A stretch of 64,000 nt of DNA from an uncultured bacterium (lineage in GTDB: Bacteria > Actinomycetota > Actinomycetes > S36-B12 > CAIYMF01): positions 47-64,046 of the forward strand of contig CAIYMF010000102.1 in the NCBI GenBank assembly GCA_903927265.1, written 5' to 3'. The first letter of the stretch is position 1. Each line of letters starts with the position of its first letter. The translations under genes were made by a program, and so were the position numbers. Below are positions 15,042 through 49,980 of the stretch, piece by piece. Under the pieces are notes generated by a model that did no database searches, was not told where the DNA came from, and worked only from the letters and a program-made list of their open reading frames with translations.

Positions 15042-15086
15042 CAGAGCCGACGCCCGGACTTGAACCGGGAACCCCATGTTGACAAG
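15042..15086 (-). repeat. duplicated 3' end of tRNA-Thr (att-like direct repeat)
   Basis: 15042-15086 cagagccgacgcccggactTgaaccgggaaccCcAtgttGacaag versus 16419-16463 cagagccgacgcccggactCgaaccgggaaccAcCtgttTacaag. 41/45 identical, same orientation. Covers the acceptor 3' strand, the T-arm and part of the anticodon arm. Confidence 0.75.
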
Positions 15087-15167
15087 CCACTTGTGCGTTA
15101 GTTCGCCGTCGCTCGCGGTTCGTCACCGGAGTGCGTAGATCCGGTGCGCCGCAACGGACTACGCCCG

Positions 15168-16373: not shown

Positions 16374-16420
16374 GGGGCGACCGCGCTCACCTGGACTTAC
16401 TCACACACGTTGAACCTCAG

Positions 16421-16493
16421 AGCCGACGCCCGGACTCGAACCGGGAACCACCTGTTTACAAGACAGGTGCGCTGCCAATTGCGCCACGCCGGC
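16421..16493 (-). tRNA. tRNA-Thr (anticodon TGT)
   Basis: Reverse complement GCCGGCGTGGCGCAATTGGCAGCGCACCTGTCTTGTAAACAGGTGGTTCCCGGTTCGAGTCCGGGCGTCGGCT. It has a 7-bp acceptor stem (one G-U), the anticodon stem CCTGT/ACAGG with loop CTTGTAA, and the T-arm GGTTCGAGTCC. CCA is not encoded. Confidence 0.85.
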
Positions 16494-27361: not shown

Positions 27362-28776
27362 TAGAAACCGCCCTCAAGTGACCAGCGTGCTCCGCCGGGT
27401 GTGTCTTCGAGGGCGATACCCGCCTCGCGAAGTCGATCGCGAATTGCATCTGCTGCATCGAAATCGCGACGCTCACGGGCACTCGCCCGATCGCCGATCG
27501 CAACCTGCACCAGTGCATCCAGTGCGCCCAGCGCCCGCGCATCACCACCCGATGACTCGCGTGACGCCCACAGCTCAGCAAGCGGATCGACACCAAGTAC
27601 GTCAAGCATCGCTCGCACCGCACCCAGCACCCCGGCAATCGCTGAGCGGTCGGTGCCGTCAGCGAGCAACGTGTTGCCGTCGGTCACCATCTGGTGCAGC
27701 GATGCGAGTGCCGCTGGCACTCCGAGGTCATCATCCATGGCTGCAACGAAATCGGCACAGAGCATTCCGGTGCTCGGAGCATCGGCGCCCAGCACTTCGG
27801 TTGCACGACGCACGAAGTTCTCAAGTCGGCGGAAACCAGTGGCCGACTCTTCCAATGCCTCGAAGGAAAACTCGATCATCGATCGGTAGTGCGCTGAGGC
27901 GAGGTAGTAGCGCAGTTCGATGGGACGCACTCGCTTGACGACTTCGCGCACGAGCAGTGAGTTACCTAGCGACTTGCTCATTTTTTCGCCGCTGGTGGTG
28001 ACCCATGCGTTGTGCACCCAATAGCGAGCGAAACCATCACCGGCCGCGTGCGATTGGGCGATCTCGTTTTCGTGGTGGGGAAAAATCAGGTCGAGTCCGC
28101 CGCCGTGAATATCGAACTCAGGGCCGAGGTACTTGCCCGCCATGGCTGAGCACTCCAAGTGCCACCCGGGCCGACCGTCGCCCCACGGAGTTGGCCACGA
28201 GGGCTCGCCGGGCTTCGCCGACTTCCACAAGGCGAAGTCGCGCGGGTCGTGTTTGAGATCATCACCTTCAGAATCGCCAGCAGGCAACAGGTCGTCGACT
28301 TTCTGACCCGACAATGCGCCATAGTCAGGCAACGACCGCACGTCGAAGTACACGTCGCCGCCCGAGGCGTAGGCGTGACCGGAATCAATAAGCCGCTGCA
28401 TGAGCACGATCATTTCGGGAACGTGCCCCGTAGCCCGAGGCTCGATCGTGGGTGGCGTGCAACCCAGCACGTCGTAGGCCCAGGCAAATTCGCGTTCGTA
28501 CTGCATTGCCACCGCCCACCACGGACGCTCTTCATCGCGACCACGGGCAATGATCTTGTCGTCGATGTCGGTGACGTTGCGGCAGAAGGTCACCTCGTAG
28601 CCGCTGATACGCAGCCAGCGACCCAAGACGTCAAAGCACACGCCTGACCTGATGTGGCCTACGTGAGGCGCAGCCTGAACCGTCGCGCCGCACAGGTAGA
28701 GCGAGGCCTGGCCTTCGCGCAGAGGTACGAAATCACGCACCGATCTCGTGGCGGTGTCGTGCAGTCGGAGTGCCAC
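27361..28776 (-). CDS. cysS: cysteine--tRNA ligase
   Basis: [19 protein letters not shown] (HIGH), KMSKSLGN (KMSKS), and the Zn-site Cys/His context. Confidence 0.95.
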
Positions 28777-37753: not shown

Positions 37754-38293
37754 TCAGACGCCAACGGCCTCACGCACGAGGGTGACACCGTGGTTGACCG
37801 AGGAGTACGCCTCGGAACCACGCTTGGCCAGATCGGTCGCCACGTCGGTGGCAAACTCGGTGACGATGCCCGATGCCTTCGCCGGCAACGCAACCACGTC
37901 AGCGAACACCTTGTGCATGTCGAATTCGGCAACGGCCTTCTGAACATCAAAGCCGGGAATCTCCACTGCCGGGAGGTTGAGTTCGCGCAGATCAAGCTTG
38001 CCGAGGTCTTCTACCAGGGAAGCGATGAACGACGGAGCGGCAGCGACAACGGCCGGGGCGGCCGCCAACGTGCGGTTGCCCGTGAGTCTGCGTGCGCCTG
38101 AGGGCTTGGCAGCAACCGGCTTGCGCGCGGACGAAGTCGCAGGTGTGACCTTCTTCGCCGTGGTCTTACGGGCGGTGGTCTTCTTGGGGGCTGCCTTCTT
38201 CGCCGTGGTCGTGCGCACGGTCGTCTTCTTCACAGGAGCCTTCTTCGCCGTCGTCTTACGCGCGGCGGTCTTCTTGGTGGTCGTGGTAGCCAT
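37754..38293 (-). CDS. basic protein with N-terminal KKTTA-type Lys/Thr/Ala repeats (HbhA/histone-H1-tail-like)
   Basis: MATTTTKKTAARKTTAKKAPVKKTTVRTTTAKKAAPKKTTARKTTAKK... precedes an acidic helical C-terminal domain. AAGGA lies 6 nt before ATG 38293. The neighbouring XRE gene mirrors the Rv0474/hbhA neighbourhood, as recalled. Confidence 0.6.
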   Translation of the reverse strand: MATTTTKKTAARKTTAKKAPVKKTTVRTTTAKKAAPKKTTARKTTAKKVTPATSSARKPVAAKPSGARRLTGNRTLAAAPAVVAAAPSFIASLVEDLGKLDLRELNLPAVEIPGFDVQKAVAEFDMHKVFADVVALPAKASGIVTEFATDVATDLAKRGSEAYSSVNHGVTLVREAVGV

Positions 38294-46182: not shown

Positions 46183-46923
46183 ATGTCGACGCTTCTACTG
46201 CTCACGTCAACCCTTGACGCCTCCACCACGGTGGTTCCTTCGCTTGGTCTGCTCAACCACCACGTACGCGTGCTGCCAGCTGAGGCAAGTGCACTCCTCG
46301 ATGCTCCCTCAGCCGACGTGCTACTCGTTGACGGTCGTCGCGACTTGGCCAGCGCGCGCAGTCTGTGCCGGCTGATTCGCACCACCGGAATTGACATTCC
46401 CCTGCTACTCGTCACCACCGAGGGTGGCCTTGTCGGCGTCTCCTCCGACTGGGGCATCGATGACTTTGTCCTTGAGTCGGCCGGCCCGGCCGAACTCGAC
46501 GCGCGGCTGCGGCTGGCCATCGGACGTCTGGTTGTCGACGAGGAAGCAAGTGGTGAGATTCGCAGCGGCGATGTGGTGATCGACGAGCACAGTTACACCG
46601 CACGCCTACGCGGTCGGGCGCTCGATCTCACCTTCAAGGAATTTGAACTACTCAAATTCCTGGCTCAGCACCCCGGACGAGTGTTCTCGCGAGCGCAGCT
46701 GTTGCAGGAGGTGTGGGGTTACGACTACTTCGGAGGTACGCGCACCGTCGACGTTCATGTGCGACGACTGCGCGCCAAACTCGGAGTCGAACACGAGTCG
46801 CTCATTGGCACCGTGCGCAACGTGGGCTACCGGTTCGTTCCGCAGAAGCCAGATGAGGCAACCCTCGCGACGCTCGACGATGGCGAGCACCTCGAAGCGT
46901 CCACGACGGCGTCACGGTTGTGA
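46183..46923 (+). CDS. glnR: GlnR-type orphan OmpR-family regulator
   Basis: MSTLLLLTS...[10 protein letters not shown]...[10 protein letters not shown]...[21 protein letters not shown] closely follows the actinobacterial GlnR pattern. Located directly upstream of mshD, as in Mtb Rv0818/Rv0819 (recalled). Confidence 0.7.
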
Positions 46924-47891
46924 CGATGGCCGGCGACGAACGCTGGCTCGACGACGTCTCTGACCTCGAGCACGACGACGTGCACGCGGTGCTTCATCTA
47001 ATCGATCAGGTCACTGACGCCGATGGTGTGAGGCCGTTGGATGAGCACGCACTGCTACACATCCGGCGCGGTGGAGACGTGGGGGCACGCCACCTGCTTG
47101 AGTGGAACCGATCAACTTCCGATGAACCAGCGCAGCTCGTGGGGTACCTCCACCTCGATTCCACCGACGAGGTCGCAGGGCCGGTTGCCGAACTCGCCGT
47201 GCATCCAGAGTTTCGTCGGCACGGAATCGGTCGGAATCTGGTGCAGGCGATCATTGATCAAAGTTCCGACGGCCAGATGCGGTTGTGGGCTCACGGTGAG
47301 AGCACGGCATCGGCCCATTTGGCGGGCTCGATGGGGTTCACGTCGACTCGCGTGCTCTGGCAGATGCGGCGTTCACTGTCAGCGGCGCTTCCACGACTGG
47401 TACTTCCCGACGGCGTACGCATTCGCGCATTCAATCCCGGCCACGACGACGACGCGTGGGTGGCGGTCAATGCCCGCGCGTTCGAAAACCACCCCGATCA
47501 GGGTCGCTGGACCATCGACGATCTCCGTTTGCGCATGCGCGAACCGTGGTTCGATCCGACGGGTTTCTTACTGGCTGTGACGGGTGCCGGAGCTGACGAG
47601 CAGATCGTCGCGTTCCACTGGACCAAGGTGCACGGAAGTAATGACCACGGGCACGGACACGGACACGCACAACTCGGAGAGGTGTTTGTGGTGGGAGTCG
47701 ACCCCGAGTGGCAGCGCAAGAGCCTCGGGCGGTCGCTGACGGTCGCGGGTCTGGCGCACCTGCGATCGCGCGGCCTCGACCAAGCAATGCTCTACGTCGA
47801 CGCGCGCAACACCAACGCCATCAAGGTGTACGAGTCACTGGGGTTTGCGCGATGGGACACCGACGTTCTGTTTACTCGCGTCCCCTCGTAG
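46920..47891 (+). CDS. mshD: mycothiol synthase (tandem GNAT)
   Basis: Two GNAT halves ([14 protein letters not shown] and [14 protein letters not shown]). The C-terminus is ...[11 protein letters not shown]. Confidence 0.85.
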
Positions 47892-47906
47892 CACACCCCT
47901 TCTTTT

Positions 47907-47944
47907 CGCATGGGGGGACATTGAGCACGCATAGAGGCAGTTTT
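47907..47944. repeat. left arm of a perfect 38-bp inverted repeat
   Basis: cgcatggggggacattgagcacgcatagaggcagtttt. Its exact reverse complement occurs at 48729-48766. Similarity extends about 8 nt further inward (one indel, one mismatch). Confidence 0.95.
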
Positions 47945-47964
47945 TCTACCCCATCATTCCGCGG

Positions 47965-48675
47965 TCAGGGCGTTTCGAGCATCTCACCGGCTCGCACCTC
48001 ACGCCGCGATCCGTGTCCGAGAACCCACGCCGACTGACGGCCTTCAACCCGCCACTCATGTGGCCCGCCGACGACCGCGGTGTCCTCGTCAATTCCAAGC
48101 ACGGTGACACCCTCGGGGGCGTGGAGTAGAACGCGCGTGATCATGTCGGGCATCCAGCCGGCCATCTTGTCAAAATGCGGAATGACTCGTAGATGCGGAA
48201 GAACTCCGAGGCCCGGATCTGGGCTAAGCCCTAGGCGCTTGACCGAAGGAACCCACGAGGTCATGGCCATCGCACCCGCGCTGCACCCCGCGAGCGCCGC
48301 CCCAGCGCGCCACGCTCCCTCGATGCGCTCCCACAGCAGGGTGCCGCGCAGCGTGCCTGCCAGGAAATGCGGGTCACCACCCGACAGGTAGATCAGGCCC
48401 GCGCCATCAACGAGATCGGCGATTGCCGGGTCATCTGCTTCCTCTCGATTGCGCGCAATGACCGGCACCGATTCAACCCCCAGCCGCTCTGCCTGTGCCC
48501 GCCCGAGGGCAACCCAACGGTCAAGAGAACTCTGATCCTCTTGACCAGCGGCGGTCGGAATCTGCACGTAGCGCCCCGCGCGTCCGTCGAGGAGTGCTCG
48601 CTCGATTTCCAGCATCTGAGGCAGGTACTCGCCCGATCCGACGAGAGCTAGCGGACCGGGCAGCGAGGTGGTCAT
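47965..48675 (-). CDS. peptidase S51 / cyanophycinase-like (class I GATase-fold) protein
   Basis: LVGSGEY..., YLSGGDPHFL, GCSAGAMAM (nucleophile Ser context), and VIPHFD. Confidence 0.7.
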   Translation of the reverse strand: MTTSLPGPLALVGSGEYLPQMLEIERALLDGRAGRYVQIPTAAGQEDQSSLDRWVALGRAQAERLGVESVPVIARNREEADDPAIADLVDGAGLIYLSGGDPHFLAGTLRGTLLWERIEGAWRAGAALAGCSAGAMAMTSWVPSVKRLGLSPDPGLGVLPHLRVIPHFDKMAGWMPDMITRVLLHAPEGVTVLGIDEDTAVVGGPHEWRVEGRQSAWVLGHGSRREVRAGEMLETP

Positions 48676-48728
48676 TCACACATGATCACAGACGCCAGCA
48701 CAAAAACTGCGCTAGGTGCTGGGGGAAG

Positions 48729-48766
48729 AAAACTGCCTCTATGCGTGCTCAATGTCCCCCCATGCG
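48729..48766. repeat. right arm of the perfect 38-bp inverted repeat
   Basis: aaaactgcctctatgcgtgctcaatgtccccccatgcg is the reverse complement of 47907-47944. It lies 27 nt after the stop of the 395-aa gene and 53 nt before the start of the S51 gene. Confidence 0.95.
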
Positions 48767-48792
48767 GAATTGGGGGTCGGGGGGGGTCGGAA

Positions 48793-49980
48793 TTAGGTGA
48801 GGTCCCATTCGGGGCCGGTCGGAGTGTCGCGAATGGTCACGCCAGCCTCGGCAAGTCGATCGCGAATGAGATCGGAATCGGCAAATCGCTTCTCAGCACG
48901 TGCTGCCATCCGCATCTCCAGCAGCAGTGCGACGTACGGACCAACGATCGACTCGCGATCAACCGGCGCGTTAGCCGCGCGCTCGCCCAACGCCGCAATC
49001 AGCGCACCCACCGATCGCGAGTCAGCCTCAGGGTCGGCCTGAAGCAGGAGCAACCCCGTCACCGCTGCCTCGACATCGCCCGCCGCCAGACTCGCCGCGA
49101 TCCCTGCCGCATCGACGCCATCGGAAGGAACGGTCACCGAGACAGCCCGCTCGCCCGAGCCCGCAATCTCAGCGATTCGCGTCACCGTCAACGCATCACC
49201 GGACCGGAACTCCGTTGACGACGAATGCGTGCGCACGGTGACTCGCCCGCGACCCACGATTTCGACATCGCCCGATTCGACATCAATGACCACACCGGTG
49301 TGCTCATCAATGCCCAACACGAATGCATCGTCGGGCAGCTGGTCGATCAACGAAGCCAGTCGACGTTCACCCATGTAGCAAAAGCGCGTGTCGTGGGTGC
49401 CACCCTCGGCGTTGTCGAAGTGGGGAACAACAGCTGCCCGCAACCCCGTGGCACGGCCCAGCACGTCAAGCCCCTCGAGCCACCGAGGCTCCTGACCCAC
49501 CTTGTAGACCTCGTACACCGGAATCGTGAACGCCCCCAGTGTCAGTGCCGCCGCTGAGGCAAACACCACGGCGCCACCCGACCGCAGCCGCTCGTCGAGC
49601 AGGCCAACGACAGGCGTGCCGCTCCACTGTTCAAGCGCGTAACTGGGTGACCCTGGCCCCGCAAAAACCCAACGTGCCTGTCCCAACGCCGCCAACGCAC
49701 GCGCCGCCGCAGCCGGATCGGCCTGTGTTGCCACTCGGGAGCGTAGCGACGCCACTCCGACCGTACGGCCGACCGAGTCGCGAAAGTATGTCTGGATGCG
49801 CTCAGTGAGTTCATCGGCATTCTCTTGGAATCCGAAGGGCGTATCGAGAAGAACCGCTGGAACCTCGCCGGGCGCGCCGAGGCGCGAAAACACGCGCTGA
49901 TGGGGAGTGACCATCGTCGGACTGGTCTCCCCCGAGCCAAGCACCATGAGCAATCGCGGCAGAGGAAGTGGGGTCACCAT
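48793..49980 (-). CDS. S51-like paralogue fused to a CysRS C-terminal-like domain
   Basis: The N-terminal ~250 aa parallels the neighbouring S51 protein (LGSGETS / FAGPGSPSY / FASAAALTLG / VVPHFDN / LGIDEHTGVV). The C-terminus MAARAEKRFADSDLIRDRLAEAGVTIRDTPTGPEWDL is about 50% identical to the CysS C-terminus in this window. Confidence 0.7.
   Translation of the reverse strand: MVTPLPLPRLLMVLGSGETSPTMVTPHQRVFSRLGAPGEVPAVLLDTPFGFQENADELTERIQTYFRDSVGRTVGVASLRSRVATQADPAAAARALAALGQARWVFAGPGSPSYALEQWSGTPVVGLLDERLRSGGAVVFASAAALTLGAFTIPVYEVYKVGQEPRWLEGLDVLGRATGLRAAVVPHFDNAEGGTHDTRFCYMGERRLASLIDQLPDDAFVLGIDEHTGVVIDVESGDVEIVGRGRVTVRTHSSSTEFRSGDALTVTRIAEIAGSGERAVSVTVPSDGVDAAGIAASLAAGDVEAAVTGLLLLQADPEADSRSVGALIAALGERAANAPVDRESIVGPYVALLLEMRMAARAEKRFADSDLIRDRLAEAGVTIRDTPTGPEWDLT

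What the first reader, a model, noticed from the sequence alone, without database searches (positions are those of the whole stretch)
47907..48766. Perfect 38-bp inverted repeat precisely bracketing a single S51-peptidase-like gene
cgcatggggggacattgagcacgcatagaggcagtttt (47907-47944) is the exact reverse complement of 48729-48766, and about 8 further nt are similar. The arms sit 20 nt beyond the stop and 53 nt before the start of the 236-aa gene, so the repeat encloses one ORF and nothing else. Perfect identity over 38 bp in non-coding DNA suggests recent duplication or continuing homogenisation. I see three non-exclusive readings. (a) An invertible gene cassette: in the present orientation the gene is co-directional with the upstream 395-aa paralogue, and flipped it would be antisense, although no invertase is adjacent. 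(b) A long-range 38-bp RNA duplex closing the whole ORF into a loop in the polycistronic transcript, making an RNase III or translation-control target. (c) Terminal inverted repeats of a mobilised cassette or MITE pair. In each location the same-sense copy also follows a convergent gene end (mshD on the plus strand, the 395-aa gene on the minus strand).
Basis: seen in the sequence. Interest (0 to 1): 0.75.

Follow-up and report, generated by a model that had tools for sequence, protein, structure and literature searches.

The report
Two dispersed-repeat copies flanking a resident gene
The perfect inverted repeat around the peptidase gene is real, but its arms are two copies of a short repeat scattered at about 45 sites in this bacterial lineage's genome that landed either side of a gene already there, so it is not a flip-switch or a mobile gene cassette.

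Summary
The 38-mer at 47907-47944 is the exact reverse complement of 48729-48766, and the similarity extends to 53 nt at 91%. The interpretation needs changing. Each arm is one copy of a lineage-specific dispersed repeat ("family A"). It has a core of about 50 nt, CGCATGGGGGGACAyTnAGCACGCATAGAsGCAGTTTT...CCCCA, preceded by a variable C-rich tail. A genome scan found 24 strict matches, all in one related MAG. Profile searches give about 43-45 distinct sites, nearly all intergenic, and also reveal a sister family B.

The S51 gene is ancestral. Outgroup relatives without the repeat keep the same gene order, and in them the two S51-like genes overlap. No inverted junction appeared in 12 junctions from 9 assemblies of three lineages, and no recombinase lies nearby. 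A perfect 38-nt match is not unusual within the family, since 6.9% of unrelated copy pairs share one.

The finding is therefore an ordinary by-product of a REP/REPIN/MITE-like family. Two properties of the family remain unexplained. Neighbouring copies less than 3.5 kb apart are almost always head-to-head (13 of 14 loci). The core is almost invariant between orthologues, with 1 change in 476 site-comparisons against 9% divergence in the flanks.

The parts
47898..47957 (+). Family-A repeat unit, copy 1 (the left arm). A short C-rich tail is followed by the core, and the perfect 38-mer is 47907-47944. It fills almost the whole 73-nt gap between the mshD stop and the S51 stop.
   Evidence: nhmmer profile hit E 1.5e-19; repeat finder; pattern search. 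Orthologous copies are present in L027, L003, L048, L103 and L104.
48716..48775 (-). Family-A repeat unit, copy 2 (the right arm). The perfect 38-mer is 48729-48766. It lies between the stop of the 395-aa gene and the start of S51, in the same sense as both genes.
   Evidence: nhmmer hit E 1.2e-19. Orthologous copies are present in L027, L104 and L105.
48776..48792 (-). C-rich tail of copy 2 (TTCCGACCCCCCCCGACCC...). It begins directly after, and overlaps, the TAA stop of the 395-aa gene. It repeats the unit's own 5' motif AATTCCG.
   Evidence: Sequence. Comparable C-rich or tandem tails occur at every family copy.
47965..48675 (-). 236-aa S51 (cyanophycinase/PepE-like) peptidase gene. It is a resident, vertically inherited gene and not cargo.
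   Evidence: Pfam PF03575 E 2e-16. The same position and orientation are seen in outgroups L004 and L008 at 76-77% amino-acid identity, without repeats.
48676..48715 (-). Spacer between unit copy 2 and the S51 start. It contains TGTGATCAT (48682-48690) 6 nt before the ATG and has no Shine-Dalgarno sequence. This is a candidate extended -10 box of a leaderless promoter.
   Evidence: GGCGTCTGTGATCATG is invariant in W, L027, L103 and L104, while the 20-30 nt upstream differ strongly. The promoter role is an inference and is untested.
48793..49980 (-). 395-aa S51-like paralogue with a CysS_C-like C-terminal domain. In outgroups it overlaps the S51 gene by 4 or 16 nt; here the unit insertion separates them by 117 nt.
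   Evidence: gene coordinates in L004 and L008.
46920..47891 (+). mshD (mycothiol synthase). Its 3' end faces the tail of unit copy 1.
   Evidence: NCBIfam TIGR03448 E 8.7e-96.

Best explanation
The two arms are independent members of a lineage-specific family of small dispersed intergenic repeats, here called family A. Each unit has a variable C-rich tail, often a short tandem repeat, followed by a core of about 50 nt: TTCCGCATGGGGGGACAyTnAGCACGCATAGAsGCAGTTTT(4-6 nt)CCCCA.

One copy sits in each of the two intergenic gaps that flank an ancestral S51 peptidase gene, and the two copies are oriented head-to-head. Seen locally, that arrangement looks like a perfect inverted repeat bracketing one ORF.

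The copy upstream of S51 was inserted at the junction of two formerly overlapping, co-directional genes. It now separates them by 117 nt, and S51 probably uses its own leaderless promoter there (inferred).

Both copies predate the split of at least three lineages that are about 88% identical in DNA. The gene has stayed in its ancestral orientation throughout.

The family behaves like REP/REPIN- or MITE-type elements. It is extragenic and lies tight against gene ends. It forms head-to-head doublets, including hybrid doublets with a sister family B. One copy is tolerated in frame inside the repair gene mutM. How the family spreads is inferred and not shown; the most likely route is non-autonomous mobilisation in the past, followed by retention under constraint or homogenisation.
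For: Dispersal: the genome scan gave 24 exact matches on 13 contigs of a single MAG (JAPLAU01) and none in any of the other roughly 185,000 species representatives. The metagenome scan gave 73 matches in one sample series. Profile search plus flank clustering gave about 43 distinct sites.

Defined unit: conservation begins and ends sharply.

Context: the copies are nearly all intergenic, 7-30 nt from gene ends, in all four intergenic configurations, with no bias relative to transcription.

Resident gene: outgroups L004 and L008 keep the order ppk / 375-388 aa / S51 / mshD / glnR with overlapping S51-like genes and no unit. S51 is as diverged as its neighbours.

A second, independent case shows the same history: the DUF8010 gene in L033 is bracketed by two A units but is syntenic and unbracketed in outgroups.

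Orientation: 8 left junctions and 4 right junctions all have the ancestral orientation.

Perfect identity is unremarkable: 62 of 902 unrelated copy pairs share a perfect run of at least 38 nt.

REP-like traits: there are five tight head-to-head doublets, including B/A hybrids, and an in-frame copy in mutM. These parallel published REP behaviour: HH dimers, hybrid dimers, singletons as dimer remnants, and copies inside repair genes (PMC3733652; PMC3116915).
Against: The unit is not a palindrome and does not fold better than shuffled sequence (z from -0.7 to +0.4). It has no terminal GTAG/CGTC tag and only a short imperfect terminal inverted repeat (roughly CATGGGG...CCCCATG). It therefore fails the structural definition of REP and fits MITEs only loosely.

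No mobilising enzyme, target-site duplication or empty site was found, so mobility is not demonstrated.

Orthologous copies are far too conserved for dead mobile DNA: 1 substitution in 476 core site-comparisons against 9% flank divergence.

The head-to-head bias of neighbouring copies extends to gaps of 3.3 kb (13 of 14 loci). Chance insertion does not explain this. The pairing around S51 may therefore not be accidental.
Confidence: 0.85

Rival explanations
1. Paired boundary element. The head-to-head pair is a selected functional unit. Examples would be orientation-dependent transcription stops or insulators that shield the bracketed gene from read-through on both sides, or sites for a protein that pairs convergent copies. 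On this view, bracketing of S51 is not an accident of insertion.
For: Neighbouring A/B units less than 3.5 kb apart are head-to-head in 13 distinct loci, direct in 1 and tail-to-tail in 0. Beyond 3.5 kb the bias vanishes. Several pairs enclose exactly one unrelated resident gene: S51, DUF8010, an alpha/beta hydrolase and a DUF559-like gene. The core is under strong constraint or homogenisation, with three free positions. In the window, both tails face the 3' end of an outer gene, and S51 has a conserved candidate promoter of its own.
Against: There are no expression data. Half of all units have their tail facing a gene start and not a gene end. The unit has no recognisable terminator or known RNA fold. 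The number of distinct pairs is small, and the sampling is limited to DNA within about 4-10 kb of known copies.
Confidence: 0.15
2. Long-range RNA duplex. In a transcript spanning both arms, the 38-53-nt complementary segments pair and close the S51 cistron into a loop. This would create an RNase III substrate or occlude translation.
For: The predicted duplex energy is -92.1 kcal/mol for the two arms in the S51-sense RNA. Both arms lie within about 55 nt of the ORF ends. REP dimers are proposed in the literature to act as RNA hairpins (PMC3733652).
Against: It is unknown whether one transcript contains both arms. In the sister species the orthologous arms share only a 20-nt perfect run, so perfect pairing is not conserved. 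Any two family copies would pair equally well, so complementarity follows from family membership alone.
Confidence: 0.12
3. Invertible gene cassette (inverton). Recombination between the arms flips the S51 gene on and off.
For: Inverted repeats of 38-53 bp flank one gene. Several metagenome contigs break at the right arm.
Against: None of the 12 recovered junctions shows the flipped state, across three lineages and nine assemblies. The contigs that break at the right arm still cross the left arm. Inversion heterogeneity would break both, so the adjacent poly-C tail is the likelier cause. No recombinase lies within about 6 kb. The same repeat occurs at about 45 sites, mostly as singletons.
Confidence: 0.03
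4. Composite mobile cassette. The two repeat copies act as the ends of a transposon that brought in the S51 gene as cargo.
For: MITE-flanked or IS-flanked gene cassettes are a known type of structure (own knowledge). The arms face each other in inverted orientation.
Against: S51 is at the same position and in the same orientation in outgroups that lack the repeats. Its divergence matches that of its neighbours. No direct repeat flanks the pair. The DUF8010 case gives the same result.
Confidence: 0.02

Closest known systems
REP elements and REPINs (REP doublets forming hairpins; RAYT-associated)
   Same: Short, high-copy and extragenic, lying tight against gene ends. Inverted head-to-head doublets with spacers of 3-100 nt are over-represented. 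Hybrid doublets form between sister families. Singletons coexist with dimers that have one degenerate partner. There is one copy inside a DNA-repair gene. Copies persist at orthologous sites across species. (PMC3116915; PMC3733652; compare.)
   Different: The unit is about 50 nt and not palindromic, whereas REPs are 20-40-bp stem-loops. It has no terminal GTAG/CGTC tag. It carries a variable C-rich microsatellite tail. No RAYT was found (not searchable here). The head-to-head bias reaches gaps of up to 3.3 kb that contain whole resident genes. The host is an actinobacterium, a phylum the term search of PMC3733652 did not find mentioned.
MITEs and MITE-flanked gene modules
   Same: Small and non-coding, present in tens of copies, and restricted to one lineage. 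It has short imperfect terminal inverted repeats (CATGGGGGGAC...GT(A)CCCCATG). Two copies in inverted orientation flank a gene.
   Different: No target-site duplication or parent IS was identified. The flanked gene is ancestral and not cargo. Orthologous copies are conserved far more than decaying MITEs would be.
Rickettsia palindromic elements (RPE)
   Same: One copy (in mutM; L016 and L051) is inserted in frame and adds about 20 residues to a protein that otherwise remains intact.
   Different: Only one robust genic copy was found; the family is otherwise intergenic. The unit is not palindromic. The comparison with RPEs rests on my own knowledge and was not tested.
Invertons (phase-variable invertible segments)
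   Same: Inverted repeats flank a short DNA segment.
   Different: No second orientation was found, no invertase lies nearby, and the repeats are dispersed genome-wide.

Membership tests
REP / REPIN | The unit is a 20-40-bp imperfect palindrome that forms a stem-loop. | tested here: not met
   The 69-74-nt unit regions fold no better than shuffles on either strand (z from -0.73 to +0.41). Only a 5-8-bp G-run/C-run closing stem is present.
REP / REPIN | An unpaired GTAG or CGTC tag at one end (PMC3733652). | tested here: not met
   The consensus has no terminal GTAG. CGTC occurs only internally on the reverse strand, in the s=C variant.
REP / REPIN | Inverted doublets with short spacers are over-represented (PMC3116915). 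| tested here: met
   There are five tight head-to-head doublets with gaps of 3-92 nt, of types A/A, B/A and B/B.
REP / REPIN | A cognate RAYT (Y1/HUH transposase) gene flanked by the repeats. | not testable with these tools
   Only about 4-10 kb around each copy is held. The bracketed genes examined are an S51 peptidase and DUF8010/DUF8185, not transposases.
MITE | Terminal inverted repeats. | tested here: inconclusive
   A short imperfect match is seen: CATGGGGGGAC / GT(A)CCCCATG in some subfamilies and CCCCAGC in others. Family B has GCATCGGGGGCACC / GGCGCCCC.
MITE | A target-site duplication, shown by comparing filled and empty sites. | tested here: inconclusive
   No empty site was found among 837 kb of held sequence. 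Outgroups are too diverged to place the boundaries.
Inverton / invertible cassette | Both orientations are present in the population. | tested here: not met
   8 left and 4 right junctions from 9 assemblies all have the ancestral orientation. Read-level data were not available.
Inverton / invertible cassette | A site-specific recombinase is encoded nearby. | tested here: not met
   The neighbours within about 6 kb are an alpha/beta hydrolase, GlnR, MshD, two S51-like genes, PPK, thioredoxin, DUF4395, DsrE, FUR, CYTH/CHAD and NUDIX.
Composite transposon / mobilised cassette | The cargo gene is absent from the syntenic site in relatives that lack the flanking repeats. | tested here: not met
   S51 is present at the same place in L004-L011, which have no A or B units.
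Known structured RNA (Rfam) | A match to a curated covariance model. | tested here: not met
   There were no hits at E<=10 over 47600-49100. Only a tRNA was found in the whole window. Nothing relevant was found in L022 or L025.

The most novel reading that the evidence does not exclude
The repeat is not junk but a selected, orientation-dependent element that works in convergent (head-to-head) pairs over distances from 3 nt to about 3 kb. The pair would mark off single resident genes or small gene groups such as S51. Possible mechanisms are blocking transcription that enters from either side, being bridged by a sequence-specific protein, or pairing as RNA. This would account for the near-invariant 34-position core across species, the 13:1:0 pair geometry and the bracketing of unrelated ancestral genes.
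Probability: 0.12. Interest if true: 0.65.

Novelty: new member of a known kind. Interest (0 to 1): 0.3.

Why it matters
For the scan, this removes a false lead. A perfect inverted repeat around one gene looks like a switch or a cassette, but here it is the local footprint of a dispersed repeat family. The general lesson is to count copies in the genome before interpreting such a repeat.

The family itself appears to be undescribed. It has no Rfam match and occurs in only one of about 185,000 species representatives. It shows REP/REPIN-like behaviour in a freshwater actinobacterial lineage with a non-palindromic unit. Its strict head-to-head geometry and extreme conservation between orthologues bear on a long-standing question: whether such repeats persist because they are useful to the host or only because they spread.

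Tried and rejected
- **Rfam:** searches of the locus, the whole window and two related loci found nothing relevant.
- **Promoter and terminator scan:** the consensus scan found nothing at the arms.
- **Folding:** single-unit folding on both strands was no better than shuffled sequence.
- **Viral contigs:** the scan for the unit gave 0 hits, so there is no phage link.
- **Empty sites:** a search for empty sites to define insertion boundaries and target-site duplications found none.
- **RAYT hypothesis:** I tested whether the second bracketed gene (L033) is a RAYT-like transposase. It had no match in my Pfam scan and carries only DUF8010/DUF8185 in the precomputed domains, so this was rejected.
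- **Genic copies:** I tested whether many copies lie inside genes. Most such cases were ORF-extension artefacts of my own gene caller; only mutM is robust.
- **Coding constraint:** I considered that the variable triplet yTn reflects a coding constraint as a Leu codon. I rejected this because TTC, TCA and stop-creating variants occur and no consistent ORF spans the units.
- **Arm-to-arm gene conversion:** I considered this as the cause of the perfect identity. It is not required (6.9% background). However, both arms carry G at position s in two lineages and C in the third, so some concerted change is likely.
- **GC3-based gene calling:** this failed on a 62% GC genome and was replaced by a codon log-odds caller.
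- **Loose motif scan:** a scan allowing 4 edits was mostly noise, but it revealed family B.

Full report
**1. The observation**

The repeat is real and is at the stated coordinates. The 38-mer at 47907-47944 is the exact reverse complement of 48729-48766. The similarity extends to 53 nt at 91% (47904-47956 / 48717-48769) with 760 nt between the arms. No other copy exists in the 64-kb window, and no shuffle produced a match. The only gene between the arms is a 236-aa Peptidase_S51 ORF at 47965-48675 on the minus strand.

The flanking genes are:
- mshD, 46920-47891 on the plus strand (TIGR03448).
- A 395-aa gene, 48793-49980 on the minus strand. It is a genuine S51/cyanophycinase-like paralogue (31% identity over 160 aa) with a CysS_C-like tail.

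**2. The arms belong to a dispersed repeat family**

I scanned one genome from each of 185,579 species for ATGGGGGGACANNNAGCACGCATAGA. This gave 24 exact matches. All were in one MAG (JAPLAU01, Actinomycetota, Lac Pavin), spread over 13 contigs. One of these loci, L027, is the orthologue of the window locus and carries both arms.

A looser pattern found 73 matches in one JGI metagenome series and none in viral contigs. A profile built from the copies found 110 hits in 837 kb of held sequence, and these collapse to about 43 distinct genomic sites.

The unit has sharp limits:
- A C-rich tail of variable length comes first. It is often a short tandem repeat that echoes the unit's own 5' end, for example (TTTCCCGCAC)n in L028 and (CCCCTAA)n in L014.
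- The core follows: TTCCGCATGGGGGGACAyTnAGCACGCATAGAsGCAGTTTT, then 4-6 variable bases, then CCCCA.

The copies are almost all intergenic and lie 7-30 nt from gene ends. They occur in convergent, divergent and tandem contexts with no orientation bias relative to transcription. One copy sits in frame inside mutM and adds about 20 residues. The unit matches no Rfam family and does not fold better than shuffled sequence.

A sister family B has the same architecture but a different core, GCATCGGGGGCACCCAAGCGCGCACCTAGCGCG...GGCGCCCCA. It occurs at 10 or more sites in the same genomes and is absent from the window.

**3. The S51 gene is resident, not cargo**

Relatives at 76-77% protein identity (L004-L011) keep the order ppk / 375-388-aa paralogue / S51 / mshD / glnR. 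In them the two S51-like genes overlap by 4 or 16 nt and no A or B unit is present. S51 is as diverged from these relatives as its neighbours are.

The novelty in the window's clade is therefore the insertion of one unit into each gap next to S51. The upstream insertion split a formerly overlapping gene pair and created the 117-nt spacer. Within that spacer, GGCGTCTGTGATCATG lies immediately 5' of the start codon and is invariant across four lineages, while the DNA just upstream of it varies. There is no Shine-Dalgarno sequence. I read this as a candidate leaderless promoter; this is an inference.

A second locus, L033, repeats the whole story. Two A units lie head-to-head, 740 nt apart, around a DUF8010/DUF8185 gene. 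In outgroups this gene is syntenic, unbracketed and, in L101, overlaps its upstream neighbour.

**4. There is no evidence of inversion**

Nine independent assemblies from three lineages carry the locus (W, L001-L003, L027, L048 and L103-L105; 87-100% nucleotide identity to the window). Eight cross the mshD-side junction and four cross the junction on the 395-aa side. All 12 junctions have the ancestral orientation.

Contigs often break at the right arm. The same contigs cross the left arm, which argues against inversion heterogeneity. The break more likely reflects the adjacent poly-C tail. No recombinase is encoded within about 6 kb.

**5. The perfect identity is unremarkable**

Within family A, variation is confined to three core positions and the 3' variable block. 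Among 902 pairs of copies from unrelated sites, 62 (6.9%) share a perfect in-register run of at least 38 nt. The orthologous arms in the sister species share only 20 nt. The perfect 38-mer therefore needs no special mechanism.

Some concerted change is nevertheless likely. Both arms carry G at position s in two lineages and C in the third.

**6. What the family is like**

Its behaviour matches published REP/REPIN biology:
- Head-to-head dimers with spacers of 1-100 bp.
- Hybrid dimers between families.
- Singletons that are remnants of dimers.
- Copies inside repair genes.
- Long persistence in the genome.

These points come from PMC3116915 and PMC3733652. The family nonetheless fails the structural definition of REP, because the unit is neither a palindrome nor GTAG/CGTC-tagged. 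It fits MITEs only loosely, with short imperfect terminal repeats and no demonstrable target-site duplication. I therefore file it as a new family of a known kind, small dispersed intergenic repeats. I do not file it as a member of REP or of any named MITE family.

**7. Two properties remain unexplained**

*Pair geometry.* I combined families A and B and removed duplicate assemblies.

| Gap between adjacent units | Head-to-head | Direct | Tail-to-tail |
|---|---|---|---|
| Under 3.5 kb | 13 distinct loci | 1 | 0 |
| 3.5 kb or more | 0 | 3 | 2 |

The 13 head-to-head gaps are 3, 12, 22, 24, 92, 714, 740, 758, 782, 1091, 2061, 2397 and 3311 nt. Several of the wide pairs enclose a single unrelated resident gene. 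Gene orientation does not explain the bias, and cargo transposition is excluded for the two loci examined (section 3). I also see no reason for assembly to favour head-to-head over tail-to-tail pairs; this last point is my reasoning and was not tested.

*Conservation.* In 14 orthologous comparisons between lineages, the flanks differ by 9% on average. The 34 conserved core positions show 1 substitution in 476 site-comparisons. The three free positions differ in 12 of 42. This indicates either purifying selection on each copy or efficient homogenisation. These comparisons are not all independent and the sampling is centred on known copies, so the figures are indicative.

**8. Verdict**

The inverted repeat around the S51 gene is the local appearance of two copies of a dispersed repeat. 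It is neither a switch nor a mobile cassette. An RNA duplex between the arms is physically possible (-92 kcal/mol) but is a consequence of family membership and is untested. Interest in the finding as posed is low. Interest in the repeat family is moderate, because of its strict pair geometry and its conservation.

Noticed in passing
L016 5099-5150 and L051 5532-5579 (related genomes): A family-A unit is inserted in frame inside mutM/fpg. It lies between the RRGKFLWL and LVAHLGMSG motifs and adds about 20 residues (PISHGGTLSTHRRSFASPATAD). All three Fpg domains are still detected, and the insertion is conserved in two lineages.
   Followed up: partly
L022 6104-6162, L025 3734-3794, L075 1217-1359 and others: A sister repeat family B has the same architecture as family A: a C-rich tandem tail, GCAT, a G-run, about 35 nt, then CCCCA. 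It forms B/B doublets and hybrid B/A head-to-head doublets. No copy is present in the window.
   Followed up: partly
window 48682-48690 (minus strand): TGTGATCAT lies 6 nt before the S51 ATG, and there is no Shine-Dalgarno sequence. The 16-mer GGCGTCTGTGATCATG is invariant in four lineages while the adjacent upstream DNA is highly diverged. It may be an extended -10 box of a leaderless promoter.
   Followed up: partly
L033 1270-1326: The C-rich tandem tail of a unit, (CACCGC)n, runs into the 3' end of a thioesterase gene. It is translated as a C-terminal (Thr-Ala)n extension, giving 154 aa against 141 aa in the outgroup L098.
   Followed up: partly
window 48821-48867 and 27398-27444: These two 47-nt stretches are 72% identical. 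The first encodes the CysS_C-like tail of the 395-aa S51-like protein. The second probably belongs to a cysS/mshC-type ligase gene. This suggests that the unusual C-terminal domain of the 395-aa protein derives from a Cys-tRNA-ligase-like gene.
   Followed up: no
window 38149-38277: A 45-nt tandem repeat is present in 2.9 copies at 77% match. The reverse strand reads as a Lys/Thr/Ala-rich repeat, like the basic tails of actinobacterial HU/histone-like proteins.
   Followed up: no
window 15042-15096 and 16418-16472: Two 55-nt stretches are 85% alike. The second lies within a tRNA gene (Rfam tRNA, 16421-16493, minus strand). The first was not reported by Rfam at the gathering threshold.
   Followed up: no
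L078 9992-11553: Three consecutive intergenic gaps each hold a family-A unit (+, +, -). They bracket an 85-aa MoaD-like gene and then a gene of about 340 aa that looks like a DUF559/AbiEi type. Units therefore cluster locally.
   Followed up: no
L001, L002, L003, L048 and L103 (contig ends): Five of nine metagenome assemblies of this locus end within or next to the right arm and its poly-C tail, while four of those five cross the left arm. More generally, many metagenome contigs end at family-A copies. The family is thus a recurrent assembly breakpoint.
   Followed up: partly
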